Below are positions 5,048 to 29,429 of a stretch of 35,024 nucleotides of DNA, piece after piece (within the stretch, counting starts at the first letter, position 1; each line of letters begins with the position of its first letter). Source of the DNA: an uncultured Nitrospina sp. GTDB taxonomy: Bacteria > Nitrospinota > Nitrospinia > Nitrospinales > VA-1. Made by a program: the position numbers and the translations under genes. The notes under the pieces were generated by a model, which saw only the letters and a list, made by a program, of their open reading frames with translations, ran no database searches and had not been told where the DNA came from. The stretch covers positions 1 to 35,024 of the forward strand of contig CAZEBI010000004.1 of assembly GCA_964510355.1 (NCBI GenBank), in the 5' to 3' direction.

Positions 5048-5345
5048 GAAGGAGCGAACCTTTGATTGCGGAGATTTGTGCGGGCAAACCGGCGAGTTGC
5101 CGGTGGCAAGTCGCGGCAAATAAAACCCATTTGGGCGATTTAATCACAACTGTAATGATAAAACAAGGGCACCCCTAAAAACCGCTTTTGGTCATGATCC
5201 CGTTTTCGCTTGCGGCCAGAGGGTTTTATGCTGAATGATAGGATTGCTTCATAAATAATTAGGCGATAAATAATCAAATATTACTAAAAGTTATCGGAAA
5301 AAATACCGCTAAGCTAGTAATGAGCCTTAATTTAAAGAGAGAAAA

Positions 5346-6806
5346 ATGACCCACCCTAAGACTCGGCTTGCGTCATACAAGGCGCAAATCGCAAGGTTGA
5401 TTTTGACGGATGATCTTGACGAAGCAAAAAGGACTCTACAAAAAGCCCCGGAAGATTTTAACCTGATGAGGGGTCTTATGGAAAAGGTTCAAGCTCAAAC
5501 CCGTCCCCTCGATTCATATAGAAATTCAGGGCCAAAATATGCCATCTCATCGGTTTCTTATACCTGCGGCGTGGGGTGCGAAATGTGTTGGGCAGGCTTT
5601 CATGACAAAACAAAGCTCTTTGACAACTATAAAAATCTCTTGCCGGAGGAGTTCGACGATTGGATGCCTTGGGTGGAATATGCTGACATGGTCATGCTGG
5701 CCGGGCTGGGAGAAACTCTGGACTCTCCCTATATCTTTGATCATTTAAACAAGCTCCGCAATAAAACCACTTATCTCACAACAAGTGGATCGACCTTGAC
5801 CTTGAAAAAGGGGAAGCAACTCATTGAATCCGGCCTTTCTTATCTGAGCCTGTCGTTTGATGGGGAGACTGTAGCGGGTCATGGAAGTGGCGACAAGGAG
5901 TACACGCGTCGTTTTTGGGAAAATATCACTCAATTAAATACTTTGAAGGATCAACTTGCGTCTTCCAGTCCAATTTTACGTATGCAAATCGCTTTAAACC
6001 TGGAAAACCTGGACCAGCTTCATTCGTTGATTGAAAAAGCGGTTGCCCATAATATTAAGAGTGTAGAGTTTTTTTTCATGATCCCTTCGAGTGGTGAATT
6101 GTTTGAAAAAAGCATTTTCAGTGATTATGAAAATTCCCGGGAACAAATAAAAAAGGTTTTGAGTTATTGGTCGTCCGAAGGCCTGGATATTTCAATATTC
6201 AACAGGAAGGACATTTCTGAAAAACCGACCTCTTGTCATTATATTGACCTGACTGCAATTTTCAATTTGGATCGTTATTTACCTCAACCCTGTTGCGGCC
6301 CCTTGAGGCTACCTCTGGAAACCCGAGGTTTAACTCCTGAGCGATACTGGAACTCTTTTCCACTGCGTTATTTTCGATACTTGCATGCCAATGATGAAAA
6401 GGAGAGGGTGCCATCTCTTTGTGATTTTTGTTGGGCGCGCAACCCCGATAAATTTGCCAACTCCATACAAGAATCTTTTGCCCCAGAAAAAAATTCTGAA
6501 AACCTGATCCCTGTTTACCAGAAAGCCTCAAACTTGAAAAAGCGGAACGAATTTGACCCGGCAATTCAGCAATTTGAATATGTGATCAAAACGACTCAAG
6601 ATTCCGATCTGCTTGGCAAGGCCCATTTTCACATCGGAGAAATAGAGCTGGGTCAAGGACGCTTTGAAAACGCTTTCTCGCATTTCCAGAAAGCCATCCA
6701 TTTTCAGTTTCGCCACCAATTGGCCTTTTGTTATTTTTATCTATTATGGATTATCCTGGATAAAAATAACCGGGTTCTCTCACCGGAGCTGAGAAAGCTT
6801 ACCTAG
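5346..6806 (+). CDS. Radical SAM protein with SPASM/twitch-like Cys-rich region and C-terminal TPR-like helices (paralogue 1)
   Basis: 486 aa. CX3CX2C motif in VSYTCGVGCEMC, followed by GLGETLD and SFDG blocks typical of the radical SAM core. Downstream cysteines: SCHYID, CCGP, CDFCWA. The tail has TPR-like repeats and a hydrophobic HQLAFCYFYLLWIIL segment. Confidence 0.75.
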   Translation: MTHPKTRLASYKAQIARLILTDDLDEAKRTLQKAPEDFNLMRGLMEKVQAQTRPLDSYRNSGPKYAISSVSYTCGVGCEMCWAGFHDKTKLFDNYKNLLPEEFDDWMPWVEYADMVMLAGLGETLDSPYIFDHLNKLRNKTTYLTTSGSTLTLKKGKQLIESGLSYLSLSFDGETVAGHGSGDKEYTRRFWENITQLNTLKDQLASSSPILRMQIALNLENLDQLHSLIEKAVAHNIKSVEFFFMIPSSGELFEKSIFSDYENSREQIKKVLSYWSSEGLDISIFNRKDISEKPTSCHYIDLTAIFNLDRYLPQPCCGPLRLPLETRGLTPERYWNSFPLRYFRYLHANDEKERVPSLCDFCWARNPDKFANSIQESFAPEKNSENLIPVYQKASNLKKRNEFDPAIQQFEYVIKTTQDSDLLGKAHFHIGEIELGQGRFENAFSHFQKAIHFQFRHQLAFCYFYLLWIILDKNNRVLSPELRKLT

Positions 6807-6841: not shown

Positions 6842-6944
6842 ACAACCCCCTTCGTAGAAGGGGGAGCTTCAATGGACCCCTCTTTTACAAAGAGGGGCTG
6901 GGGTGATTTAGAAACTCTCGCGCAATATGTGGGCTAGGGGGGGG
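6842..6944 (-). repeat. Intergenic repeat family A, copy 1 (inverted relative to copy 2 at 30478..30609)
   Basis: The reverse complement of 6842..6944 aligns by eye with 30478..30609. Shared blocks: CCCCCC(C)T(T/A)GCCC(G/A)CATATTGCGCGA, then CTTTGTAAA(A)GAGGGGTCCATT(A/G)AAGCTCCCCCTT...AAGGGGG. Boundaries are approximate. Confidence 0.7.
6846..6897. terminator. Two strong GC hairpins between convergent genes; candidate bidirectional terminator
   Basis: Hairpin 1: CCCCCTTC-gta-GAAGGGGG (6846..6864). Hairpin 2: CCCCTCTTT-tac-AAAGAGGGG (6877..6897). They lie between the stops at 6806 (+) and 7011 (-). Neither has a clear U-tract, so terminator function is inferred only. Confidence 0.35.
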
Positions 6945-12107: not shown

Positions 12108-13227
12108 ATGCAAGAAGATTTAGCCAAGACGTTCAAAGATATAGAAAACAAGATAGGACTTCTTCGGAGGTTACTTTGACGTTGATCAGAAGATAAAAGA
12201 AGTGGCGTCTCTGGATGCAGGAATTGCCGGCTCGGGGTTCTGGAATGATAATGAGTCCGCCCAAAAAATTCTACAAAAAAGGTCCGGTCTGCAACGTTCC
12301 ATAGAAATCTGGAAAAACCTGGATAAAGAGGGCGAAGACTTGAGTGCCATGCTGGAGCTTTCTGCCGAGGAAGAAGACCCTTCTCTCGACGAGGAGATCC
12401 AATCTTCTTTGATCCAGCTTAGAGAACAGGTTGTCCTGGCAGAATTGCAGGCCATGTTGTCGGGGGACAATGACTTTAATAATGCTTTCCTGGCGATCAA
12501 CTCCGGCGCAGGGGGCACGGAGTCGCAAGACTGGGCGGAAATGCTTTTACGCATGTACCTGCGCTGGGGAGACCGTAATGGTTATAAAACAGAAGTTCTG
12601 GATATGCAATATGGCGAGGAGGCGGGTATCAAAAGTGCCACGGTCCTGTTCACCGGCGACTACGCTTTCGGTTATTTGAAAGCGGAGATCGGAGTGCATC
12701 GCCTGGTGCGTATTTCTCCTTATGATTCCAACAAAAGACGCCACACCTCGTTTGCGTCGGCTTTTGTCTACCCTGAAGTTGATGATGAAATCGACGTTGA
12801 AATCAAGGACGAAGACTTGAAGGTAGATGTCTATCGCGCTTCAGGGCCGGGAGGTCAAGGCGTGAACACCACCGATTCTGCGGTCCGGTTGACGCATACT
12901 CCGTCGGGTATTGTGGTCCAATGCCAGAATGAACGCTCGCAACATAAAAACAAGGCATCGGCCATCAAGGTCTTAAAATCCCGCCTGTACGAGCTGGAAC
13001 AGGAAAAACAGGGTGAAGAAAAAAAGGAAATGGAGAAGCAAAAAAGAAAAATAGAATGGGGCAGTCAGATCCGTTCCTACGTTCTGCACCCTTACCGCCT
13101 AGTTAAAGACTTGCGGACGAATGTGGAAGTGGGCAATGTGGATGCGGTGCTCGATGGCGATCTACAGACTTTCATTCAGGCTTTTTTGCGTTTCGATAAA
13201 ACCGGAGAGGAGGCAGGAAAGGTATGA
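12108..13227 (+). CDS. prfB: Peptide chain release factor 2, expressed by +1 programmed frameshift: join(12108..12176,12178..13227)
   Basis: ATG 12108 follows AAGGAG (12096..12101). Frame 0 reads MQEDLAKTFKDIENKIGLLRRLL, then an in-frame TGA at 12177..12179. The +1 frame continues DVDQKIKEVASLDAGIAGSGFWND...SGAGGTESQDWAEML...GVHRLVRISPYDS...YRASGPGGQGVNTTDSAVR...QCQNERSQHKNK. GGQ and an SP(Y/F)-type motif are present. Confidence 0.95.
12166..12180 (+). promoter_or_regulatory. prfB: prfB +1 frameshift site: internal SD-like GGAGG, 3-nt spacer, CTT TGA C
   Basis: The sequence is GGAGG-TTA-CTT-TGA-C. E. coli has AGGGGG-TAT-CTT-TGA-C, with the same slippery CUU, a UGA followed by C, and the same 3-nt spacer. 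Confidence 0.9.
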
Positions 13228-14249
13228 AATCGGGGATGCAACCGGCTTTAATCAATGACCCGTTCGGGGACCCCGGACTGCTGGTGCAGTTTCTTCTGCA
13301 AAAGCGGGTGCTGTTGTTTGACCTGGGCGATTTATCCGCTGTATCGAACGCAACCTTGCTCAAAGTTTCCCATGTTTTTGTCAGCCACACCCATATCGAC
13401 CATTTTATTGGTTTTGACCGGTTGTTGCGCACGCTTTTTGGCCGGGAAAAAACACTGACAATTTTTGGCCCGGAAAATATCATTCAAAATGTGCAAGGTA
13501 AGCTGGCCGGATTCACCTGGAACCTGGTTGAGCTGTATGCGGAATCGCTCACCATAGAGGTGGTCGAAGTGCGCCAGAGCGGTTTGCGGAAAGGCAGTTT
13601 CAGGGCGATTGAAAAATTTCAGCTTTGCGACGAAAGGCAAGAGGCTTTTGAGGAAGGGGGGCGGATCGTGGACCACCCTGACTTTTCTGTGCACGCGGCG
13701 ATACTGGAGCATCGGGTGCCTTGTCTGGGTTTTGCGCTGGAAGAAAAACCGCACGCCAATATTGACAAAGATAAATTGCAATCGATGCAGGCCGAGCCTG
13801 GACCCTGGCTGAATCAATTGAAACAAAGCATATTGAGCGGTGAACCGGAATCCACACTCATAGCGGTGCCGTTTAGAAAGCCTGAGGGCGCGCGAAATAT
13901 TCCCCAGGGCCAACTCAAGAGCGATTTGGTGGAGGTTTTTCCCGGGCAAAAAATTGGCTATGTGGTGGATACGGTTTTTAATGAGCGTAATAGAAAGAAG
14001 ATCGTGCAATTGGTAGAATCTGCGGATATCTTTTTTTGTGAATCGCCTTTTCTGGCCGATGAAGAAGAACGCGGGCAAACACGTTACCATCTTACATCCC
14101 GTCAGGCGGGAACCCTGGCCCGAGAGGCGGGTGTCAAGCAACTGCAGGTTTTTCATTTTTCGTCCCGGCATAAAGATTGCCGCGAGCAGTTCTATAATGA
14201 GGCGCAGGAGGCTTTCCAACAAACACAGCCTGCCGCCATTGAGAAGTAA
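13224..14249 (+). CDS. Metallo-beta-lactamase-fold hydrolase (RNase Z-like subfamily possible)
   Basis: 341 aa. HxHxDH motif in VSHTHIDHFIGFDRLL. The ATG overlaps the prfB stop in ATGA (13224..13227), which suggests translational coupling. Confidence 0.7.
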   Translation: MKSGMQPALINDPFGDPGLLVQFLLQKRVLLFDLGDLSAVSNATLLKVSHVFVSHTHIDHFIGFDRLLRTLFGREKTLTIFGPENIIQNVQGKLAGFTWNLVELYAESLTIEVVEVRQSGLRKGSFRAIEKFQLCDERQEAFEEGGRIVDHPDFSVHAAILEHRVPCLGFALEEKPHANIDKDKLQSMQAEPGPWLNQLKQSILSGEPESTLIAVPFRKPEGARNIPQGQLKSDLVEVFPGQKIGYVVDTVFNERNRKKIVQLVESADIFFCESPFLADEEERGQTRYHLTSRQAGTLAREAGVKQLQVFHFSSRHKDCREQFYNEAQEAFQQTQPAAIEK

Positions 14250-22258: not shown

Positions 22259-23372
22259 AGGCGGGTATACTGGTCCATGATGTTTTCCCAGTCAAATTTT
22301 TCTCGGATAAGATTTTTGATCTGATCTCCCATTTGTTTTCTAAGCTTGTTGTCCTGCAATAACTCGATGCGATCACTCATTGCTTCCGGGTTATCCTCTG
22401 TCAAATAACCGGTTTCTCCTTCGATAATGATATCTCGGGCTACACCCACCGCCGTGGCAATGATTGGCAGGCCGTGCGCCCCGGCCTCAATGAGTGGTTG
22501 TCCAAAATTTTCGTATTGGGATGGGTAGACGAATAGGTCCGCCATTTTGTAATACTCTTTCAGTTCTGCTTGCGATTTTCTTCCGGCAAACGTCACCTTG
22601 TTGTTCAGGTTGAGGCTCTGCGTGAGTTGTTTTAGTTCTTGCAAGTAGCCGGAACGCGTGACACTGCTGGTTTTTTCTTCGCCGCCAGCGATGGTTAAGT
22701 GAAAGGGGAGGGTCAATTGTGCAACCGCCTGCAATAGCAGTTCAAGGTGCCGCACCCGCGCGATTCGACCGACAAATAGCAGTTGCAGGGTGTCGCTGGA
22801 GGTTTTTTCATCAAGGGTGTCGTTTACCTTGACACCCATAGGGATGATATGAATTTTGTCTTTCGCAATTCCAAACTCCAAAGCGTCTTCATATTCAAAT
22901 TTTGAGGAAACGATGATGGCCTGGGCTCTTTTTGCCGAAGTTTTTAAAGTCATCCAGTCGTAAGCGTGATAGGGAATCCGCTGGAAAAAGGAAGGCAGAT
23001 AGTTTTTAAAGCCGAGAAGGGAGCCGTGGGTATTTAAGATGAAAGGTTTATCTTTCAAGAGCGCAAAAAAAAACCGCTGTCGGTTTGAAAGTTTCGATAA
23101 TTGTGGCTGTGTAAGATATCAAAATTTTTAAAATAAGAAAGCATTCCTGCGCTCACGCAGTAGCGCATGATTTTAAACTGGTGGGGAAACCTGAACACGG
23201 ATACGCGCTCATATTTTTCATGGTGAGCGAGATCAGGATCAACATCGGAGTAGGTGGTGTAAACCGGGGAGTGAATGCCTCTTTCTTCCAAGCGGTTGGA
23301 GATTTGAAAAGCCTGATTGGTTGGGCCGCAAATATAGGGTAAAAAAGTTTCTATGGTGCGTAAGATTTTCAA
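22243..23372 (-). pseudogene. GT4 (GT-B fold) glycosyltransferase interrupted by a single-base frameshift in a T9 tract
   Basis: The N-domain (LKILRTIETFLPYICGPTNQAFQISNRLEERG...ILHSHNYRNFQTDSGFFLRS*) and the C-domain ((L)KDKPFILNTHGS...FVYPSQYENFGQPLIEAGAHGLPIIAT...EGETGYL) lie in adjacent frames. The junction is A9 on the plus strand at 23065..23073. One extra T on the coding strand would give ...TDSGFFFALLKDKPFILNTHG... and a ~376-aa protein. The proposed TTG start at 23372 overlaps the upstream stop (TTGA). Confidence 0.7.
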
Positions 23373-23755
23373 GTCTGCGTGCCGGTTTGCCAGGGAGGCT
23401 GGTGAATTTTTTCTTCCAGTACTTTCTTTTCGTGATCCAATATCCCGACATGCTGTGTCAGGATACGCACTTGTTGAGTCAAGGCGGAAATGCGGATAGA
23501 AAAATGCAGACAAATGACCATGAGGAACAAGAGCCCGAAAAAGAATAATGTGGAAGTGACTAAAGTGGCCCCCACCAACCCCGAAACCCATTGTAAGGTA
23601 CTTCCTGAAACCGAAAGCACAAGCATCAAAGTTCCGGTGATCAGCCAGCCCATTGAGTATTCCTCGCTCAAATGCTTTCTTCGGACCAACTCAAAAACAT
23701 ATGCGACCAGAAATACGCATATCAAAATGGAGATTATTTGAATTCGAGTGGGCAT
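23369..23755 (-). CDS. Small membrane protein, DUF2304-like
   Basis: 128 aa with 3-4 TM helices. ELVRRKHLSEEYSMGWL after TM1 resembles the DUF2304 family as I recall it. That family is usually found next to a GT2 gene, as here. Confidence 0.55.
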   Translation of the reverse strand: MPTRIQIISILICVFLVAYVFELVRRKHLSEEYSMGWLITGTLMLVLSVSGSTLQWVSGLVGATLVTSTLFFFGLLFLMVICLHFSIRISALTQQVRILTQHVGILDHEKKVLEEKIHQPPWQTGTQT

Positions 23756-23758
23756 GGC

Positions 23759-24571
23759 TTATCTCGATTTTCTTAAAAGGGTTACAAAAATTGAAAGGAA
23801 CATTTTAAAAACATAATAAATTGTTTTGTGCCCGTGATGCATGGATTCTTTATTTGGGCTGGCGTGCATGGTCACCGGAATCTCTTTGACGTTGAACCCG
23901 CAGCGGTTCAACAAAATGATGAAGTCCGCATCCGGGTAGTCCGGGGGGTAGTTGTCGCTTGCGGCAAACTCAATGGCTCGTCCCTTCAACGCTTGAAACC
24001 CTGAAGTGGGGTCGGTCACTTTTTGTCTGCAAATGAGAGAAGCGATAGTGCCAAACAATAACATCCCCGCATGGCGTGCCAGGGATGTTTTATAAGAGTC
24101 CGGGCTTAAAAAACGCGAGCCGATCACCACATCGCGATTTTCTTTTTGAACTTCTTTGAGCAGGTCTTTAATATTTTCAGGGTCATGCTGACCATCGGAA
24201 TCCATTTGTACCACGATGGAAAAATTATTTTTTACGGCATATAAAAATCCCGTTTGCAGTGCAACGCCATAACCTGAATTGTAAGGCAAGGAAATAACTT
24301 TGGCATTGTGTGCCAGGGCTACTTTTTCTGTGTTGTCTGCAGAACCATCATTGATCACCAGTATGGGAATTCCTGGTGACTGTTTTCGGATGCCATCGAG
24401 AACCGCGCCTATATTTTTTTCTTCATTATAGGCTGGAATGATGATCAGGATTTTAGGTTGTTTGGTCAAGGGTTCCTGAGACGAAAAAATTTCTGTCGTA
24501 TCATCCTCCTGGATAACCGCCAAGGCTTCGGGTGCCTGGGATTTGAAAGTTTTATAACTGAGGGTTTCCAT
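23759..24571 (-). CDS. Family-2 glycosyltransferase
   Basis: 270 aa. ILIIIPAYNEEKNIGAVL...LVINDGSADNT...QMDSDGQHDP. Confidence 0.8.
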   Translation of the reverse strand: METLSYKTFKSQAPEALAVIQEDDTTEIFSSQEPLTKQPKILIIIPAYNEEKNIGAVLDGIRKQSPGIPILVINDGSADNTEKVALAHNAKVISLPYNSGYGVALQTGFLYAVKNNFSIVVQMDSDGQHDPENIKDLLKEVQKENRDVVIGSRFLSPDSYKTSLARHAGMLLFGTIASLICRQKVTDPTSGFQALKGRAIEFAASDNYPPDYPDADFIILLNRCGFNVKEIPVTMHASPNKESMHHGHKTIYYVFKMFLSIFVTLLRKSR

Positions 24572-24848
24572 TCACCGGGAATCTTTCAAACAGGCACGCA
24601 ATGAAAATCATCTTTGAGCCAGCCAGAGAAAGGCCTTCGGGATCTTTTGTATCTATTATACAAAATTAACTCGAACCAGGGCTGGACCATTTATTAATGG
24701 CGCTCATAAGTTATAAAACGGTTGTTAGGGAAATAAACTTGACCCCATAATCTACGCATATTTTATACGAAATGTAACCCATTGTAAATAATAGGGTTGG
24801 GAGATTTCAAGGGCCTGGGGTTGTTTGAAAGCTCAGGGGCGGAGGATT

Positions 24849-25193
24849 CTACCGGTTTAACAGTTTGCAGGAGTCACGAATGCGTGCTGAAAGTATCCGT
24901 AAGAGAGGAATCAGGGCTTCAGGGTGGGTTCTTTCCATGGAATCAAAACACTCCTGAGTGATGAGGGAGACTTTGCCTTTTTCCAGGGCGGTGACGGTTG
25001 CAGACCGGGGTTGCCCGTCTATAATTCCCATTTCCCCGAAAATATCCTTTTCCTTGAGGATAGCCAGAACCTGTTTTTGTCCGTCACATATTCTGAACAC
25101 TTCAAATTTTCCTTCTTCAACGAGATAAGCGCAGTCACTGGAGCTGCCTGCCTCGAACACCACTTCTCCAGGCTCAAAGCATTGAGTTTTCAT
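24849..25193 (-). CDS. Stand-alone cyclic-nucleotide-binding (CNB) domain protein D
   Basis: 114 aa. GEVVFEAGSSSDCAYLVEEGKFEV...IFGEMGIIDGQPRSATVTA has an intact phosphate-binding cassette. No other domain is present. A GGAG SD lies within the upstream gene's 3' end. Confidence 0.85.
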   Translation of the reverse strand: MKTQCFEPGEVVFEAGSSSDCAYLVEEGKFEVFRICDGQKQVLAILKEKDIFGEMGIIDGQPRSATVTALEKGKVSLITQECFDSMERTHPEALIPLLRILSARIRDSCKLLNR

Positions 25194-25197
25194 AGCC

Positions 25198-25617
25198 CTA
25201 TTCTCCTTTTTTGTTGTAATAGTCCGATACGGTGGTTTTGCTTGTCGTGTTGTTTTTCGGTTTTGTCCTGTTCAATTTGGTTATCGTGGTTCGCAGTTTT
25301 TCTGTCAGCGATTTGATCAGGCTGACCATGAAATGCGGATTAAATTTTGTCAGATAATTGAACCGGGATATTTCAATGATCGTGCATCGAGTATTTTCCA
25401 GAGCAATAGCTGTTGCGGACCGGGGATATTTGTCGATCAGGCCCATTTCCCCGAACAGGTCATTTTTGCCCAGTTTGCGGATGAGGGATCGGTTGCCCCG
25501 GGAATCTTCCCCGTATATCCCGACGTTTCCAGACTCGATGATGTAGGCGCAATCACTGGACTGGCCTACCAGAAAGATGATTTCATCTTTATAAAAAGTT
25601 GTGAAATTGTGATCCAT
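25198..25617 (-). CDS. Stand-alone cyclic-nucleotide-binding domain protein C
   Basis: 139 aa. DEIIFLVGQSSDCAYIIESGNV...LFGEMGLIDKYPRSATAIA, with a polar K/T/N-rich tail. Confidence 0.85.
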   Translation of the reverse strand: MDHNFTTFYKDEIIFLVGQSSDCAYIIESGNVGIYGEDSRGNRSLIRKLGKNDLFGEMGLIDKYPRSATAIALENTRCTIIEISRFNYLTKFNPHFMVSLIKSLTEKLRTTITKLNRTKPKNNTTSKTTVSDYYNKKGE

Positions 25618-25623
25618 GATGAC

Positions 25624-26034
25624 CTAACCTTTCCCCGTAGGTATTACCAGAGTGTCGCTACGCTTTGTTTTTGCACCGCTCAACCTGTCCTCCAATAGTT
25701 CTGTGGTTTGGCGCAATCGTTGCGACAAAACCCCTAGAAGAGGACTCAGTGTCAAAGGTTCGTTCGTAATCAAATAATGCAGTGTCTTTGAAGTGATGAT
25801 CGATAACTGGCAGTCCTCAAGAGCAAATGCTGTGGCGGTGCGAACTTCCTCATCAATCAGGGCCATCTCTCCGAAAATGGCATCTTTATGCAATATGGCC
25901 AAAACCTTGTGTTTTCCACGAACATCCCTTCCCGATATGATCGCGATCTTGCCCTCGTCAATCATGTAGGCGCAATCGCCCGGACTGCCTTCGGTGAAGA
26001 TCAAATCATATTTTTTGTAATGAACCTTTTTCAT
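25624..26034 (-). CDS. Stand-alone cyclic-nucleotide-binding domain protein B
   Basis: 136 aa. DLIFTEGSPGDCAYMIDEGKI...IFGEMALIDEEVRTATAFA. Confidence 0.85.
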   Translation of the reverse strand: MKKVHYKKYDLIFTEGSPGDCAYMIDEGKIAIISGRDVRGKHKVLAILHKDAIFGEMALIDEEVRTATAFALEDCQLSIITSKTLHYLITNEPLTLSPLLGVLSQRLRQTTELLEDRLSGAKTKRSDTLVIPTGKG

Positions 26035-26126
26035 GGAAACTCACCCGCCTTTCCGTTATGTAATAAGTTTGCTTCCTATGCAAAATCTTTGTGGCAACTC
26101 GCAGACCTTATAAATAGAGATGCCTT

Positions 26127-26513
26127 TTAAAGGGTTTGACGTCTGCCTGCTCCCGGAAGTTTGTATCCCTGCTTTAGACATTGCATCGTTTCTCGCAACC
26201 TGCCGATCAGAATCTTCAGGATAGGCAACAGCGCTTCCGGGTTTTCCTGAACCATGTTGTCAAAGGTTTTAGGGGTCAAGATATAAACCACCGAATCTTC
26301 CCGGGCTCGTGCTGTGGCAGAGCGCGGCAGACCGTCAATCAGGCCCATTTCCCCAAAAATTTCGTTTTCGCCCAGAACTCCCAGCACTTTTTGTCCTTCG
26401 GCGGTATTTTCAAGGATTTCTATGGAACCATGGCCGACTATATAAGCGTCCTCGCTGGGGTTGCCTTCATGGAAAATGACATCTCCCTTTTTCAAATCTT
26501 TTCTTAGATTCAT
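26127..26513 (-). CDS. Stand-alone cyclic-nucleotide-binding domain protein A
   Basis: 128 aa. DVIFHEGNPSEDAYIVGHGSIEI...IFGEMGLIDGLPRSATARA. A strong SD, AAAGGGGGGAG, lies just upstream of the ATG. Confidence 0.85.
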   Translation of the reverse strand: MNLRKDLKKGDVIFHEGNPSEDAYIVGHGSIEILENTAEGQKVLGVLGENEIFGEMGLIDGLPRSATARAREDSVVYILTPKTFDNMVQENPEALLPILKILIGRLRETMQCLKQGYKLPGAGRRQTL

Positions 26514-26730
26514 TGCTCCCCCCTTTCATAACTTTAATCTGCTCTTCTAATATTAGTATAAGCAATATGCAGGCCAAAAATGGTTGATAAAGGACTATTA
26601 TCTGCAAGTATATGCAAATAAAGACATTATTTTGCATTAAATGGTTTTAATATTATATCTGTGCGCTATTGTGGGTGATTATTGGCGCAATATGCGCAAT
26701 AGTGTATGAAAAATTGTTATTATGCGGGGT

Positions 26731-27762
26731 TTAAACCTGATTGATAGCTTCAATCAATTGATTGAGCCTGCCAAATCCCGATTTATCAAAATAAAAAGAT
26801 AGGCGGGGCAGTTCCAGGTGTTCTTTGTTTTTTAGTTCCTGTTTATGGGGTGGGGTGGGTTGCAGGGAGCCCTTCACAATAATATCCTGAAACTCGGCAT
26901 TTAATTTTTTCACGAAATCAGCGGGGAGGGATTGAGTGAGCCTGAGCACGGTCAGGTCTCCGACATAGCGCAGGGAGTGGAACACTTTGTAATAGTTGAG
27001 AATCTGGTCGATAGCCTCCTGGGCGGAGTGGGCTCTGTATACCAGGCTCAAATCACTCTGGCAGGCGAAGCCCTTTTTAACCACGACCGAGCTTATAAAG
27101 TCCATCCAACGGTCCCAGTAGTCGTCACCTTTATGACCCAGAAGGATAATAGGGCGGGGCATGCATTTCCCGGTCTGAAACAGGGTGAGGTTTTCGAAGC
27201 CTTCGTCCAGAGTCCCAAACCCCCCTGGCAAGAGGACGGTGGCAGAAGATTCTTTGATAAACACAAGTTTGCGCGTGAAAAAATACTTGAATTCCAGGAG
27301 GTGAGGGTCGTTTTCGATGAAGGCATTGGCCGCTTGTTCGTGCGGCAGTTTGATATTGAGTCCAAAGCTGTTTTCCCGTCCGGCACCCCGGTTTGCCGCC
27401 TCCATGATTCCTCCTCCGGCTCCGGTTATGACCTGATAGCCTTGCCGGGTCAACCCCTGTGCAAGCTCCAACGCCAGTTTATAATCGGGGTGAGAATCGT
27501 TAGTTCTACTGGAACCAAAAACCGCGACCTTGCGCTTGTCGCGATGGGGCAAAAACGTTGTCAGAGCCTCACGTAATTCGTGCAAGGCTTTATGGATGAG
27601 CTTATGATCGCCATGATCGGGATGTTCCCTTCCTATCAGCGCCAGGTCGGTAAACATGTCCTCAAATATTTTTGCTTTGGCATCAGGACCCATCAGCTGT
27701 GAAAGCTCCCGGATCAAAGCTTCAATGCGTGGATGATCGAGTTTTTTATTTTTAGGACTCAT
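26731..27762 (-). CDS. LOG-family (TIGR00730-type) Rossmann protein with N- and C-terminal extensions; nucleotide 5'-monophosphate nucleosidase-like
   Basis: 343 aa. VAVFGSSR...ITGAGGGIMEAANRGA...LLPGGFGTLDEGFE carries the PGGxGTxxE signature. About 75 aa N-terminal and about 95 aa C-terminal lie outside the core. Confidence 0.75.
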   Translation of the reverse strand: MSPKNKKLDHPRIEALIRELSQLMGPDAKAKIFEDMFTDLALIGREHPDHGDHKLIHKALHELREALTTFLPHRDKRKVAVFGSSRTNDSHPDYKLALELAQGLTRQGYQVITGAGGGIMEAANRGAGRENSFGLNIKLPHEQAANAFIENDPHLLEFKYFFTRKLVFIKESSATVLLPGGFGTLDEGFENLTLFQTGKCMPRPIILLGHKGDDYWDRWMDFISSVVVKKGFACQSDLSLVYRAHSAQEAIDQILNYYKVFHSLRYVGDLTVLRLTQSLPADFVKKLNAEFQDIIVKGSLQPTPPHKQELKNKEHLELPRLSFYFDKSGFGRLNQLIEAINQV

Positions 27763-27985
27763 ACGGATCTTTTCCCAAATAAGGTGTGGCGGATTAAAAG
27801 AACAATTCTAAAACAAAAAATAATGGAAGCAAATGTTTTCATACACCAGACAGAATTGCTACAATCACTGCGAGCCGGTGAGCCACCGGAGGCAGAGGGG
27901 CTTGATTGTGCCGAGACAACTCTTTGCTCGCCAGCAAAGGCTATTGCTAATAGGGTCCAGCGTCACGCTGGTAGAGGAATTTATT

Positions 27986-28183
27986 ATGAACGATAAAGTA
28001 CTTATTATTTCCATTTTCAGTTTGCTGGGCATAGGTATTGTCGCGGTGCTTTTCATCGCTGTGCCATGGCTTGTGAACTACGCCCTGCCAAACTGGAAGG
28101 ATTCACTTCTCGATAGCGGGATCGTAATGATAGCTATTGGTCTTTTTGTCTATGGGTTTTATATGAATACCAAAATGCATTGA
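27986..28183 (+). CDS. 65-aa two-TM membrane protein (paralogue 1)
   Basis: ATG 27986 is preceded by AGAGGA. MNDKVLIISIFSLLGIGIVAVLFIAVPWLVNY...IVMIAIGLFVYGFYMNTKMH. It has the same length and topology as the next ORF. Confidence 0.6.
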   Translation: MNDKVLIISIFSLLGIGIVAVLFIAVPWLVNYALPNWKDSLLDSGIVMIAIGLFVYGFYMNTKMH

Positions 28184-28201
28184 GCAAACGGGTTTCTGAC
28201 C

Positions 28202-28399
28202 ATGGACGAGAAAAAACTGATATTCATACTTGCCGGCATTTTGATATTTGGTTTTTTGTCCCTGTTCATCATAATCGTTCCCTGGTTCAACTGGGGGCGG
28301 ACTTCGGACTGGGGAGCGGTGGCTATCGATAACCTTCTGATGGGTCTTATTGGTGCCGCGATTGCCTATGGAATTTATATCGGCTCGAAAACCATGTAG
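28202..28399 (+). CDS. 65-aa two-TM membrane protein (paralogue 2)
   Basis: MDEKKLIFILAGILIFGFLSLFIIIVPWFNWG...LLMGLIGAAIAYGIYIGSKTM. It shares VPW, a central W, and the YG.Y..(T/S)K tail with paralogue 1. Confidence 0.6.
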   Translation: MDEKKLIFILAGILIFGFLSLFIIIVPWFNWGRTSDWGAVAIDNLLMGLIGAAIAYGIYIGSKTM

Positions 28400-28411
28400 C
28401 CGCCTCTTGGC

Positions 28412-28575
28412 AGGGAGACCTTTGCGTAAGTCGTCATTGCGAGCGAAGCGAAGCAATCCAGCGAAACTCTGGATCGCCACGCCGCTTTGCGGCTCGCGAT
28501 GACGATCTTGTGAGGTTTGATCTGTTATGTTTAAGAGCTATGATGAAAAATATCGAGTTATGCAAAGGTCTCCTT
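28412..28575 (+). mobile_element. MITE-like intergenic repeat family B, copy 1 (~160 bp, ~19-bp terminal inverted repeats, hairpin core)
   Basis: The ends are AGGGAGACCTTTGCGTAAG and GAGTTATGCAAAGGTCTCCTT, which are reverse complements apart from 2-3 mismatches. The core at 28432..28504 folds as CGTCATTGCGAGC...GCTCGCGATGACG, with an inner ATCCAG-cgaaact-CTGGAT stem. No coding capacity. A second copy lies at 31741..31971. Confidence 0.7.
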
Positions 28576-28637
28576 AGCATGGGAGGCAGATTGTAAAAGC
28601 TCGTCAAGCCGAGAGCATCGTTGCTAGCAAGAAAAAG

Positions 28638-29429
28638 CTATTGCCTGTTGGCCCCACGCCTAGTGGTTCTGAAAAAAACTACAGCAAAAATTCCCAGGCT
28701 GATCAGGGTTCCTACGCCTCCCAATACGATTTCCCCAATATAGAAGGTCACGCCAAGGTTAAAGATCAGCACGCCAAAATATAACCCGGGGCCCAGTAAA
28801 GCCTGGCCATAGACTTGATGTTGCGCCGTGAAGGGAATTTTTGTATCCAGCCAGCGATCGAGTACAGCAAAACACGACAGGGTCAGCCCCGCCACAAACA
28901 GCCAGCCGGCAAAATTAGTCAGCGGAATATGGAAATATTCTCCTACTTCCTCATAAAAATATATTTTTCCGAGAAACCAGCGGTCCCCCAAAAAGGCCAC
29001 CGGGTCAATGATGACATCGAGCAACATGCACAAGACACAGGCCGAGACAATGACTCGCGCTGAATGTTTGAGCGGCTGGATACTGCGGATATCCCAGCCC
29101 TTTTTTATACGAGGAGCCCAGAGCAAAAGGCTCACGGTATAACTGATATAAATCAAAAATGAAAACGACAAAGAATCCATGAACGGCACATTGCTGATCC
29201 ACAATTCCTGGTTGCGGGTGGTTTCAATATAGGTGTAATAGCCAAACGGAAATCCGTTGCGGGTGGAAGAGTATTCGCAGACAAATGCAACCAGATAGGC
29301 CAGCACGGTAAATAAAAGCGACCGGACGACACCCATATTGAGAATGGCAATCGTCAGGTAAAACGCGAGAAAAACGAATACATAGGGTCGCAGGATAACG
29401 GTGCCCCATAAAAGAGAAAGAGTTTCCAT
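28638..29429 (-). CDS. Polytopic membrane protein, DUF422 / 'carotenoid biosynthesis protein'-like
   Basis: I prefer ATG 29429 (METLSLLWGTVILRPYVF...), 4 nt after the upstream stop. The ORF-track start at 29567 would overlap the upstream gene by 134 nt. Motifs FPFGYYTY, PFMDSLSF, DPVAFLGDRWFLGKIYFY and IPLTNFAGW resemble that family as I recall it. Confidence 0.5.
   Translation of the reverse strand: METLSLLWGTVILRPYVFVFLAFYLTIAILNMGVVRSLLFTVLAYLVAFVCEYSSTRNGFPFGYYTYIETTRNQELWISNVPFMDSLSFSFLIYISYTVSLLLWAPRIKKGWDIRSIQPLKHSARVIVSACVLCMLLDVIIDPVAFLGDRWFLGKIYFYEEVGEYFHIPLTNFAGWLFVAGLTLSCFAVLDRWLDTKIPFTAQHQVYGQALLGPGLYFGVLIFNLGVTFYIGEIVLGGVGTLISLGIFAVVFFRTTRRGANRQ

What the first reader, a model, noticed from the sequence alone, without database searches (positions are those of the whole stretch)
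24849..26513. Tandem array of four output-less cyclic-nucleotide-binding domain proteins
Four co-directional genes of 128, 136, 139 and 114 aa each encode only a CNB beta-barrel plus a C-terminal helix.
- None has an HTH, kinase, channel, TIR or TM output domain.
- All four keep the phosphate-binding cassette: FGEMGLIDGLPRSATA, FGEMALIDEEVRTATA, FGEMGLIDKYPRSATA, FGEMGIIDGQPRSATV. They therefore look ligand-competent.
- The gaps between them are 92, 6 and 4 nt, and the last genes have SDs embedded in the preceding gene, so at least B-C-D look translationally linked.
- They are clearly diverged paralogues rather than a recent duplication, roughly a third identical by eye.
- One has R-T-A where the others have R-S-A, and their C-terminal tails differ.

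CNB domains normally act as regulatory modules fused to an effector. A conserved operon of four bare ones suggests three possibilities: a hetero-oligomeric sensor, adaptors that act in trans on a partner protein, or a graded cNMP buffer or sponge. I do not know of a characterised system with this layout.
Basis: partly seen in the sequence, partly recalled or inferred. Interest (0 to 1): 0.72.

Follow-up and report, generated by a model that had tools for sequence, protein, structure and literature searches.

The report
Operon of four bare cAMP-sensor proteins
A marine nitrite-oxidising bacterium (Nitrospina group) carries a conserved operon, apparently driven by a sigma-54 promoter, of up to four old paralogues of the cAMP-sensing half of a Crp regulator with no DNA-binding half; two of them are fused into one protein in sister lineages, so they probably work as paired, trans-acting cyclic-nucleotide receptors whose targets are unknown.

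Summary
Four minus-strand genes (128, 136, 139 and 114 aa; gaps of 92, 6 and 4 nt) each encode only a cyclic-nucleotide-binding (CNB) domain plus a C-terminal helix, and the ligand-binding residues are intact.

- **Not decay products.** A, B, C and D each form an orthologous clade across about 12 Nitrospinaceae species. They are 50-82% identical within a clade and 33-41% identical between paralogues. dN/dS is about 0.1-0.27.
- **Best match.** In sequence and predicted fold they most resemble the sensor domain plus dimerisation helix of Crp/CAP. They stop where the hinge and HTH domain would begin.

New findings:
1. A sigma-54-type -24/-12 motif lies 61-69 nt upstream of the first CNB gene in the window and in 15 related loci.
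2. B and C occur as one conserved fused protein in at least 12 protein clusters from sister lineages. In the window they are in the same frame, separated by TAG plus two codons.
3. The slot holds A; A-B-C; A-B-C-D; A-BC-D; or BC-D. An obligate four-part complex is therefore unlikely.
4. Bare CNB proteins, and proteins made only of 2-5 CNB domains, are widespread.

No cyclase, phosphodiesterase or partner gene is linked to the array. The most likely function is a set of dimeric, trans-acting cAMP receptors. This is a new variant of a known kind and of moderate interest.

The parts
26561..26576 (-). Sigma-54-type -24/-12 promoter motif, TGGCCTGCATATTGCT (GG and GC elements at consensus spacing), starting 63 nt upstream of the ATG of A
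   Evidence: It is the only match to TGGYN7TTGCW in the 35-kb window. The same motif lies 61-69 nt upstream of the first CNB gene in 13 of 13 array-1 loci and upstream of the fused B~C gene in L081 and L082, which lack A. It is the one conserved island in an otherwise divergent AT-rich spacer. Function is inferred from the motif only.
26127..26513 (-). Gene A, 128 aa: a CNB barrel plus C-helix with a disordered tail. PBC is FGEMGLIDGLPRSATA.
   Evidence: The orthologue clade appears. E55, R64, S65, R105 and T109 align with CAP E72, R82, S83, R123 and T127.
26035..26126 (-). A-B spacer of 92 nt, with no detectable structure or promoter. Its length varies between species, from an overlap to about 100 nt.
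   Evidence: Folding z-score is +0.45. There is no Rfam hit. The coordinates show variable A-B spacing.
25624..26034 (-). Gene B, 136 aa: a CNB barrel plus C-helix. Its PBC variant, FGEMALIDEEVRTATA (Val-Arg-Thr instead of Pro-Arg-Ser), is fixed across the whole B clade.
   Evidence: B is fused to C in P0274 and P0277-P0287.
25198..25617 (-). Gene C, 139 aa: a CNB barrel plus C-helix. PBC is FGEMGLIDKYPRSATA, and the N-terminal part of the C-helix is clade-specific (F94, no P97). C is in the same frame as B, separated from it by TAG plus 2 codons.
   Evidence: The distance from the B start to the C start is 417 nt here and in L001 and L002.
24849..25193 (-). Gene D, 114 aa: the shortest CNB barrel plus C-helix. 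PBC is FGEMGIIDGQPRSATV. The C-helix Thr is replaced by Ser or Ala in the D clade.
   Evidence: D is absent in L007-L009.

Best explanation
The locus is a self-contained operon, apparently sigma-54-dependent, that is specific to Nitrospinaceae. It encodes up to four anciently duplicated, separately maintained copies of the sensor half of a Crp/CAP-type regulator. Each copy has the cyclic-nucleotide-binding beta-barrel and the long C-helix that forms the Crp dimer interface, and none has a DNA-binding domain or any other output domain.

Shown:
- domain content
- conservation of gene order
- purifying selection on all four genes
- conservation of all canonical ligand-contact residues
- the promoter motif
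- the natural B-C fusion

Inferred:
- Each protein binds a 3',5'-cyclic nucleotide, most likely cAMP, in the Crp manner (PBC Glu/Arg/Ser plus the C-helix Arg/Thr).
- Each protein dimerises through the C-helix.
- B and C act as a physically associated pair, like a tandem-CNB protein. A and D are optional extra subunits or homodimers.
- Because there is no output in cis, the signal is passed on in trans by ligand-dependent binding to other proteins. These would be single-domain second-messenger receptors, analogous to single-domain PilZ or CheY-like adaptors or to the PKA regulatory subunit.
- They are produced only when a sigma-54 activator turns the operon on.

The targets are unknown.
For: - Domain content: PF00027 only, well above threshold, in all four proteins.
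- Similarity to Crp: the full-length profile and fold similarity, C-helix included, is to Crp-family sensor domains (GlxR, MtbCRP, CAP; TM about 0.71-0.74) and to the cAMP-binding domain of Bd1971 (35% identity).
- Ligand residues: an ungapped alignment puts E55, R64, S65, R105 and T109 on CAP E72, R82, S83, R123 and T127. The query CRP sequence was verified against the PDB. These positions are universal across the A, B and C clades and across array 2.
- Orthology and selection: orthologous A, B, C and D clades span about 12 species, with dN/dS of 0.07-0.27.
- Paralogue signatures: the fixed paralogue-specific positions lie in the PBC loop and the C-helix.
- B-C fusion: it is conserved in at least 12 clusters with both PBCs intact and a conserved linker. 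One identical fused protein occurs on 12 contigs. The B and C half-trees are congruent.
- Promoter: the sigma-54 motif is found at a fixed offset in the window and 15 related loci, including loci where A is missing.
- Sigma-54 system in the phylum: an NtrC-type sigma-54 activator exists in Nitrospina.
Against: - No nucleotide cyclase, phosphodiesterase or candidate partner is encoded in the window or in the flanks of any related locus.
- Whether Nitrospina makes cAMP or cGMP could not be established.
- Copy number varies from 1 to 4, so the paralogues may be partly redundant.
- Dimerisation and B-C packing are not shown. The AlphaFold2 model of the fused protein was low confidence (pLDDT 50, pTM 0.35), and no multimer prediction was available.
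- The promoter is a sequence motif only. A single match in the window is not significant by itself (1.8 expected per window). The argument rests on positional conservation.
- D has Ser or Ala instead of the C-helix Thr.
Confidence: 0.5

Rival explanations
1. The proteins are a cyclic-nucleotide buffer or sponge. They only sequester cAMP/cGMP, setting thresholds or graded responses for other effectors, and they have no protein partners.
For: - There is no output domain and no linked partner gene.
- Several copies with differing PBC loops could give graded affinities.
- Conditional expression from a sigma-54-type promoter would allow regulated damping.
Against: - Four paralogues have each been kept as a distinct orthologous clade, with fixed differences on the C-helix as well as in the pocket, under purifying selection.
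- A conserved B-C fusion with a conserved linker is more than simple sequestration needs.
- Species with a single copy (L003, L013) show that dosage is not conserved.
Confidence: 0.15
2. The proteins are dominant-negative or modulatory partners of full-length Crp/Fnr regulators. Lacking an HTH, they would heterodimerise through the shared C-helix with a DNA-binding Crp-family protein and alter or block its activity, as HLH-only Id proteins do.
For: - The proteins end where the Crp hinge would start, and they keep the C-helix with the RLRxT motif.
- Crp-family proteins dimerise along this helix (established knowledge).
Against: - No full-length Crp/Fnr gene lies in the window or in any related locus.
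- I could not test whether Nitrospina has a Crp with a compatible helix.
- The B-C fusion suggests that the paralogues pair with each other rather than with a third protein.
Confidence: 0.13
3. The array regulates its syntenic neighbours: the LOG/SLOG-family protein upstream, or the GT2-DUF2304-GT4 envelope glycosylation genes downstream.
For: - The order LOG-array-GT2-DUF2304 is conserved in most Nitrospinaceae loci.
- LOG/SLOG proteins act on or bind nucleotides (family knowledge; Pfam and NCBIfam hits).
Against: - L007-L009 keep A-B-C without LOG. In L013 LOG is fragmented while A is intact.
- The array has its own promoter motif between LOG and A.
- Sigma-70-like sites lie between D and GT2.
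- The second Nitrospinota CNB array (L014-L016) sits in an unrelated neighbourhood.
- No LOG or GT2 gene lies next to CNB-only genes in other phyla.
Confidence: 0.1
4. The proteins sense a ligand other than a cNMP. Some Crp/Fnr-family domains use the same fold to sense haem-CO, 2-oxoglutarate, an Fe-S cluster with O2, or other ligands.
For: The CNB fold is used for non-nucleotide ligands in FNR, CooA, NtcA and related regulators (established knowledge; family list in PMC2246266).
Against: Those families have degenerate PBCs. Here the full canonical PBC (FGE...PRSAT) and the C-helix Arg/Thr are invariant. There is no Cys cluster and no haem-ligand motif.
Confidence: 0.07
5. The genes are products of gene decay: fragments of a Crp/Fnr regulator, or of a single multi-CNB gene broken by stop codons.
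For: - B and C are in the same frame, separated only by TAG plus 2 codons.
- Fused B-C genes and proteins with four CNB domains exist.
Against: - Each ORF has its own start codon and SD.
- Separate A, B, C and D ORFs are conserved over deep divergence, with dN/dS of 0.07-0.27.
- More than 100 clusters of A orthologues are all short.
- The TAG junction is conserved in an independent MAG (L002).
- The four-CNB proteins examined (for example P0148) alternate canonical and degenerate PBCs and belong to a different family.
Confidence: 0.02

Closest known systems
Crp/CAP-family cAMP receptor proteins (E. coli CAP, M. tuberculosis CRP, C. glutamicum GlxR): N-terminal sensor domain
   Same: They share the beta-barrel with a canonical PBC, aB, and a long C-helix carrying the Arg/Thr that contact cAMP. 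These are the best matches in the full-length profile search and by Foldseek.
   Different: The proteins here have no hinge and no winged-HTH DNA-binding domain. They end at or just after the C-helix, so they cannot be transcription factors by themselves.
Bd1971 of Bdellovibrio (a cAMP-sensing CNB-EAL c-di-GMP phosphodiesterase): N-terminal CNB domain, PDB 6hq2-6hq7
   Same: This is the closest solved CNB domain by identity (about 35%; TM normalised to the target 0.79). Like the proteins here, it starts directly at the barrel with no N-terminal helical extension.
   Different: In Bd1971 the CNB domain is fused to an EAL output domain. The proteins here have no fused output.
PKA regulatory subunit and other tandem-CNB proteins
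   Same: The logic is the same: CNB-only polypeptides that act in trans on a separate partner. The fused B-C form is a two-CNB protein. The barrel similarity is strong.
   Different: The proteins here have no dimerisation/docking domain and no inhibitor sequence, and no kinase partner is known. Similarity to PKA/PKG covers only the barrel (query residues about 4-90), whereas similarity to Crp also covers the C-helix.
Stand-alone or output-less bacterial CNB proteins. Examples are P. aeruginosa CbpA (cited in PMC11139211), the structural-genomics protein Mfla_1926 (PDB 3gyd), and a 160-aa CNB protein in the N. gracilis hydrogenase cluster (supplement of PMC3578206).
   Same: These proteins consist only of CNB domain(s), and their downstream mechanism is unknown.
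   Different: None of them is described as a conserved operon of four diverged paralogues with a sigma-54-type promoter and a fusion/fission pair. Sequence relationships to CbpA were not tested here.
Single-domain second-messenger adaptors (PilZ-only c-di-GMP receptors, single-domain response regulators)
   Same: This is a functional analogy only: a small sensor domain with no output that acts by protein-protein contact.
   Different: The fold and the ligand are unrelated. The analogy is an inference, not a test.

Membership tests
CNB domain superfamily (Pfam PF00027 cNMP_binding) | A profile match above the curated threshold and an 8-stranded beta-barrel fold | tested here: met
   Scores are 69-86 bits against a cutoff of 27.5 for all four proteins. 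The AlphaFold2 model of A has the barrel and the PBC helix.
CNB domain superfamily (Pfam PF00027 cNMP_binding) | An intact phosphate-binding cassette: G-E...R-[ST]-A | tested here: met
   FGEM[GA][LI]IDxx[PV]R[ST]AT is present in A-D and universal across the orthologue clades.
CNB domain superfamily (Pfam PF00027 cNMP_binding) | Actual binding of a 3',5'-cyclic nucleotide | not testable with these tools
   This needs ITC, DRaCALA or a crystal structure.
Crp/Fnr family transcription regulators | An N-terminal CNB-type sensor domain followed by a long dimerisation C-helix | tested here: met
   The profile match covers query residues 2-117, corresponding to Crp-family residues about 26-141. Foldseek top hits are GlxR, MtbCRP and CAP. 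The alignment with CAP runs through T127.
Crp/Fnr family transcription regulators | A C-terminal winged helix-turn-helix DNA-binding domain | tested here: not met
   The proteins are 114-139 aa and end after the C-helix. There is no HTH Pfam hit. NCBIfam CRP scores 40-49 bits against a cutoff of 266. The tail of A is disordered.
Pycsar anti-phage effectors (CNB fused to TIR or TM) | A CNB domain fused to a TIR or transmembrane effector, next to a pyrimidine cyclase | tested here: not met
   PADLOC hits cover only the CNB part of the PycTIR models. There is no effector domain, no cyclase in the window, and the context is chromosomal housekeeping genes.
PKA-R-type regulatory subunit | Tandem CNB-A/CNB-B plus an inhibitor site and a docking domain, with a catalytic partner | tested here: not met
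   Only the fused B-C relatives are tandem. There is no extra N-terminal region in A-D, and no kinase gene is linked.
Sigma-54-dependent promoter | GG at -24 and GC at -12 at fixed spacing (consensus TGGCACG-N4-TTGCW), upstream of the operon | tested here: met
   TGGCCTGCATATTGCT lies at 26576..26561. The same motif sits 61-69 nt upstream of the first CNB gene in 15 related loci.
Sigma-54-dependent promoter | Transcription that depends on RpoN and an enhancer-binding protein | not testable with these tools
   No activator gene lies in the window. An NtrC-type activator is present next to the second array in L015.
Output-less CNB proteins such as P. aeruginosa CbpA | Sequence orthology to CbpA, and polar localisation dependent on cAMP | not tested
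   The CbpA sequence and paper were not available. CbpA is known here only from a review.

The most novel reading that the evidence does not exclude
The array encodes a combinatorial set of Crp-sensor-only subunits. They would form cAMP-dependent homo- and heterodimers, with B and C an obligate pair (sometimes one polypeptide) and A and D optional. Together they would act as a sigma-54-induced, trans-acting cAMP receptor system: a CNB-based counterpart of single-domain PilZ or CheY adaptors. That would be a previously uncharacterised branch of cAMP signalling in the main marine nitrite oxidisers. The in-frame TAG between B and C might additionally allow both split and read-through fused forms to be made from one locus.
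Probability: 0.3. Interest if true: 0.65.

Novelty: new variant of a known kind. Interest (0 to 1): 0.45.

Why it matters
- **cAMP signalling beyond Crp.** In bacteria, cAMP is usually thought to act almost only through Crp-type transcription factors (review PMC11139211). A conserved, selectively maintained operon of Crp sensor domains with no DNA-binding part points to non-transcriptional, trans-acting cAMP receptors. These organisms (Nitrospina) carry out much of oceanic nitrite oxidation, and their signalling is essentially unstudied.
- **A concrete prediction.** The B-C fusion/fission gives a testable prediction about which proteins interact.
- **An experimental handle.** The sigma-54 motif offers a way to find the conditions that induce the operon.
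[quoted passage not shown] Here A orthologues with PF00027 as their only Pfam domain form more than 100 clusters in metagenomic assemblies, on contigs of up to tens of kilobases. At least some CNB-only ocean sequences are therefore genuine full-length proteins.

Tried and rejected
- **Structured RNA:** an Rfam scan of 23000-29000 found nothing. Folding of the A-B spacer, the region downstream of D and the 5'UTR gave no significant structure. No minus-strand terminator-like site lies between or after the genes.
- **Defence system (Pycsar):** PADLOC hits were confined to the CNB part of the models, so this was rejected.
- **LOG/SLOG neighbour as partner:** rejected as obligatory. LOG is absent in L007-L009, decayed in L013, separated from the array by the promoter motif, and not adjacent to CNB-only genes outside Nitrospinaceae.
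- **Window MBL-fold ORF (13224-14249):** tested as a relative of the MBL genes that accompany CNB-only genes in Alphaproteobacteria. It shows only superfamily-level similarity.
- **AlphaFold2 of the natural B-C fusion:** run to read out domain packing, but the confidence was too low (pLDDT 50, pTM 0.35), so it was not used.
- **Exhaustive profile search:** the ranking is dominated by multi-CNB proteins because scores add up. It was useful only for showing that output-less proteins with 2-5 CNB domains exist.
- **DNA alignment of the B-C junction, fused versus split:** too diverged to identify the exact mutational event.
- **Literature searches:** searches for stand-alone CNB proteins, for Nitrospina cAMP or cyclases, and for SLOG-CNB links found nothing directly relevant. 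The CbpA paper is not held.
- **Sigma-54 motif at the second Nitrospinota array:** there was no strict match.
Full report
**Observation.** The four ORFs are real and lie on the minus strand: A 26513..26127 (128 aa), B 26034..25624 (136 aa), C 25617..25198 (139 aa) and D 25193..24849 (114 aa). The gaps are 92, 6 and 4 nt. Each ATG is preceded by a purine-rich SD. Those of C and D lie inside the preceding gene. All four match Pfam cNMP_binding (69-86 bits, cutoff 27.5) and no other Pfam family. NCBIfam and PADLOC give only sub-threshold hits to the CNB part of CRP, Pat, family 2B encapsulin and PycTIR. The paralogues are 33-41% identical to A and share the cassette FGEM[GA][LI]IDxx[PV]R[ST]AT.

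**Source and context.** Related loci are from Nitrospina and other Nitrospinota MAGs. The window is ordinary chromosome: prfB, radical-SAM genes, many glycosyltransferases, a SurA-like gene and an alginate-export porin. Upstream of A on the same strand is a 343-aa LOG/SLOG (TIGR00730) protein. Downstream are a polyprenyl-phosphate-type GT2, DUF2304 and a GT4. No cyclase or phosphodiesterase is present in the window or in any related flank that I examined.

**Real, old and maintained genes.** A tblastn map shows LOG-A-B-C-D-GT2-DUF2304 in the same order in L002, L004-L006 and L010-L012.
- In an NJ tree, A, B, C and D each form an orthologous clade whose internal branching mirrors the species split. 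All Nitrospinota CNB-only proteins group together as ((B,C),(A,(D,E))). E is a second tandem array (1-3 genes) found in other Nitrospinota (L014-L016).
- Orthologues are 50-82% identical, against 33-41% between paralogues.
- Nei-Gojobori dN/dS is 0.07-0.27 wherever dS is not saturated.
- More than 100 metagenomic clusters of A orthologues are all 96-157 aa with PF00027 only.

**What kind of CNB domain.**
- Profile search against the PDB: similarity to PKA/PKG stops at the barrel (about residues 4-90). Similarity to Crp-family regulators (GlxR, MtbCRP, CAP) and to the Bd1971 CNB domain runs through residue about 117.
- AlphaFold2 model of A (pLDDT 83): barrel, PBC helix 55-60, aB 81-90, aC 92-114 and a disordered tail.
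- Foldseek: Crp-family sensor domains rank first (TM about 0.71-0.74), along with Bd1971 (35% identity).
- Ungapped BLASTP alignment with E. coli CRP: E55, R64, S65, R105 and T109 fall on CAP E72, R82, S83, R123 and T127. From established CAP structural work, these residues contact the ribose, the phosphate and, from the C-helix, the adenine N6.
- Conservation: these residues are conserved in the A, B and C clades and in the second array. D has Ser or Ala at the Thr position.
- Tails: the tails after about residue 118 are not conserved.

These proteins are therefore Crp sensor domains, including the dimerisation helix, that stop where the hinge and HTH domain would begin.

**Paralogue-specific features.** Positions that are fixed within clades but differ between them lie mainly in the PBC loop and on the C-helix. 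In the PBC loop these are positions 61-63, 65 and 68-69; for example, B has Val-Arg-Thr where the others have Pro-Arg-Ser. On the C-helix they are positions 94-98 and 110, and the C clade lacks P97. This pattern fits diversification of ligand affinity and of pairing. It does not fit interchangeable copies.

**New: a conserved sigma-54-type promoter.** The LOG-A spacer is AT-rich and poorly conserved, except for TGGCC[TC]-N5-TTGCT. This has exactly the GG/GC spacing of the -24/-12 consensus.
- It is the only match to TGGYN7TTGCW in the window, at 26576..26561. About 1.8 matches per window are expected by chance, so this single hit is not significant on its own.
- The same motif lies 61-69 nt upstream of the first CNB gene in 13 of 13 array-1 loci.
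- It lies 67 nt upstream of the fused B~C gene in loci without A.

The array is therefore its own transcription unit, separate from LOG, and probably needs an enhancer-binding activator. Sigma-70-like sites sit between D and GT2. No structured RNA, attenuator or terminator was detected.

**New: B-C fusion and fission.**
- The exhaustive profile search led to P0274, a 278-aa protein whose N-terminal half is B-type and whose C-terminal half is C-type.
- Using it as a query found at least 12 clusters of such fusions: 253-282 aa, 56-80% identical, with both PBCs intact and a conserved linker (KDKLKGxxVxRRDFDTxYRE). They come from JGI, ENA, Logan and NCBI, where one is annotated as Nitrospina sp..
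- One identical fused protein occurs on 12 contigs.
- The B halves fall in the B clade and the C halves in the C clade, with congruent topology. The fused lineages bracket the split lineage that contains the window.
- In the window, L001 and L002, B and C are in the same frame, 417 nt from start to start. In the window and L002 the junction reads GGT TAG GTC ATC ATG.

Either a fused ancestor was split by a stop codon, or fusion arose twice. Both readings are Rosetta-stone-type evidence that B and C function together physically.

**Variable composition.** The same slot contains:
- A only (L003; L013, where LOG is fragmented)
- A-B-C without D or LOG (L007-L009; L007 has an extra A-like copy)
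- A-B-C-D (the window and seven loci)
- A-[BC]-D (the P0277 contig)
- [BC]-D without A (the P0274 and P0284 contigs)

This argues against an obligate four-subunit complex. It favours a modular set in which B+C is one unit and A and D are separable.

**How unusual are bare CNB proteins?** Not very. Among the 80 loci retrieved with A, single short CNB-only ORFs (about 112-135 aa) occur in Alphaproteobacteria (SAR116, Hyphomicrobiales), Porticoccaceae and other groups. The profile search found 97,022 CNB proteins at E <= 1e-3, including proteins that consist only of 2, 3, 4 or 5 CNB domains. Tandem arrays of three or four separate CNB-only genes were seen only in Nitrospinota within this (biased) sample. 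The second Nitrospinota array lies between an NtrC-type sigma-54 activator and a U32 peptidase. It shares no neighbour with array 1, so synteny does not identify a partner.

**Literature.** I found no description of this operon and nothing on cAMP signalling in Nitrospina. The supplement of the N. gracilis genome paper lists a different stand-alone 160-aa cyclic-nucleotide-binding protein in the hydrogenase cluster. Kannan et al. 2007 defined no CNB-only family. They attributed CNB-only ocean-metagenome sequences to fragmentation, and the PBC here fits their poorly characterised 'Other_bacterial' class. A review names P. aeruginosa CbpA as a non-Crp cAMP-binding protein.

**Mechanism.** The best-supported reading is a sigma-54-controlled set of HTH-less Crp sensor domains. 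They would bind cAMP (less likely cGMP), dimerise through the C-helix with B and C as a heteromeric pair, and signal in trans.
- Shown: domain content, conservation, selection, ligand-contact residues, the promoter motif and the fusion.
- Inferred: ligand identity, dimerisation and trans action.

The rivals, in order, are a cNMP buffer, dominant-negative pairing with full-length Crp/Fnr proteins, regulation of the LOG or GT neighbours, a non-nucleotide ligand, and gene decay (effectively excluded).

**Verdict.** This is a lineage-specific variant (a paralogous operon with a sigma-54 promoter and a fusion/fission pair) of a widespread but essentially uncharacterised kind, the output-less CNB proteins. 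Interest is moderate.

Noticed in passing
window 25617-25626 (B stop TAG, two codons, C start ATG, minus strand); the same junction in L002 near 6848-6859: B and C are in the same reading frame, separated only by TAG GTC ATC. Sister lineages have a fused B~C gene. This may be a relic of gene fission, or it may allow stop-codon read-through so that one locus makes both split and fused forms.
   Followed up: partly
L058-L063, L067, L070, L073, L076, L078 (CNB-only gene near 5990-6340; MBL gene near 5186-5985): In marine Alphaproteobacteria and SAR116-like genomes, the 112-117-aa CNB-only homologue is immediately preceded on the same strand (gap -4 to +19 nt) by an MBL-fold gene of about 263 aa (Pfam Lactamase_B_2). 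This may be a cNMP-hydrolase + CNB-only pair. Four other neighbouring ORFs in non-Nitrospinota loci are class III cyclases.
   Followed up: partly
L014 5983-6360; L015 4716-6378; L016 5353-6366: Other Nitrospinota carry a second tandem array of 1-3 CNB-only genes (a clade sister to D) in a different neighbourhood, directly downstream of an NtrC-type sigma-54 activator and upstream of a U32 peptidase and a radical-SAM/DUF3463 gene. It has no strict sigma-54 motif.
   Followed up: partly
P0148 (574 aa), P0171 (550 aa), P0232 (568 aa), P0128 (471 aa), P0155 and about 60 clusters of roughly 329 aa: Many metagenomic proteins consist only of 2, 3, 4 or 5 CNB domains with no other Pfam domain. In P0148 canonical and degenerate PBCs alternate. 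Their function is unknown.
   Followed up: partly
window 26731-27762 (minus strand); L013 4791-5768; L007-L009: The 343-aa LOG/SLOG (TIGR00730) gene upstream of the array has N- and C-terminal extensions with no Pfam match. It is fragmented in L013 and absent in L007-L009, while the CNB genes remain.
   Followed up: partly
window 12174-12180 (+), upstream of the RF-2 ORF at 12202-13227: This is the classic prfB programmed +1 frameshift site, CTT TGA C. The short upstream frame ends ...GLLRRLL*.
   Followed up: yes
window 27833-28183 (+) and 28202-28399 (+): Two adjacent small paralogous hydrophobic ORFs, each with a core of about 65 aa and apparently two TM segments, have no Pfam or NCBIfam match. 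They are conserved between the carotenoid-synthase-like gene and LOG in all Nitrospinaceae loci.
   Followed up: no
window about 26660-26700 (minus strand, LOG-A spacer): There are repeated TTGCGC / TGCATAT-like motifs (ATTGCGCATATTGCGCCAAT ... AATAGCGCAC) upstream of the sigma-54 motif. They are not conserved in the closest relatives L001 and L002, so their significance is unclear.
   Followed up: partly
Supplement of PMC3578206 (N. gracilis gene NITGRv1_190069): N. gracilis has a separate stand-alone 160-aa cyclic-nucleotide-binding protein inside its hydrogenase gene cluster, where it is listed as a hydrogenase accessory protein.
   Followed up: no
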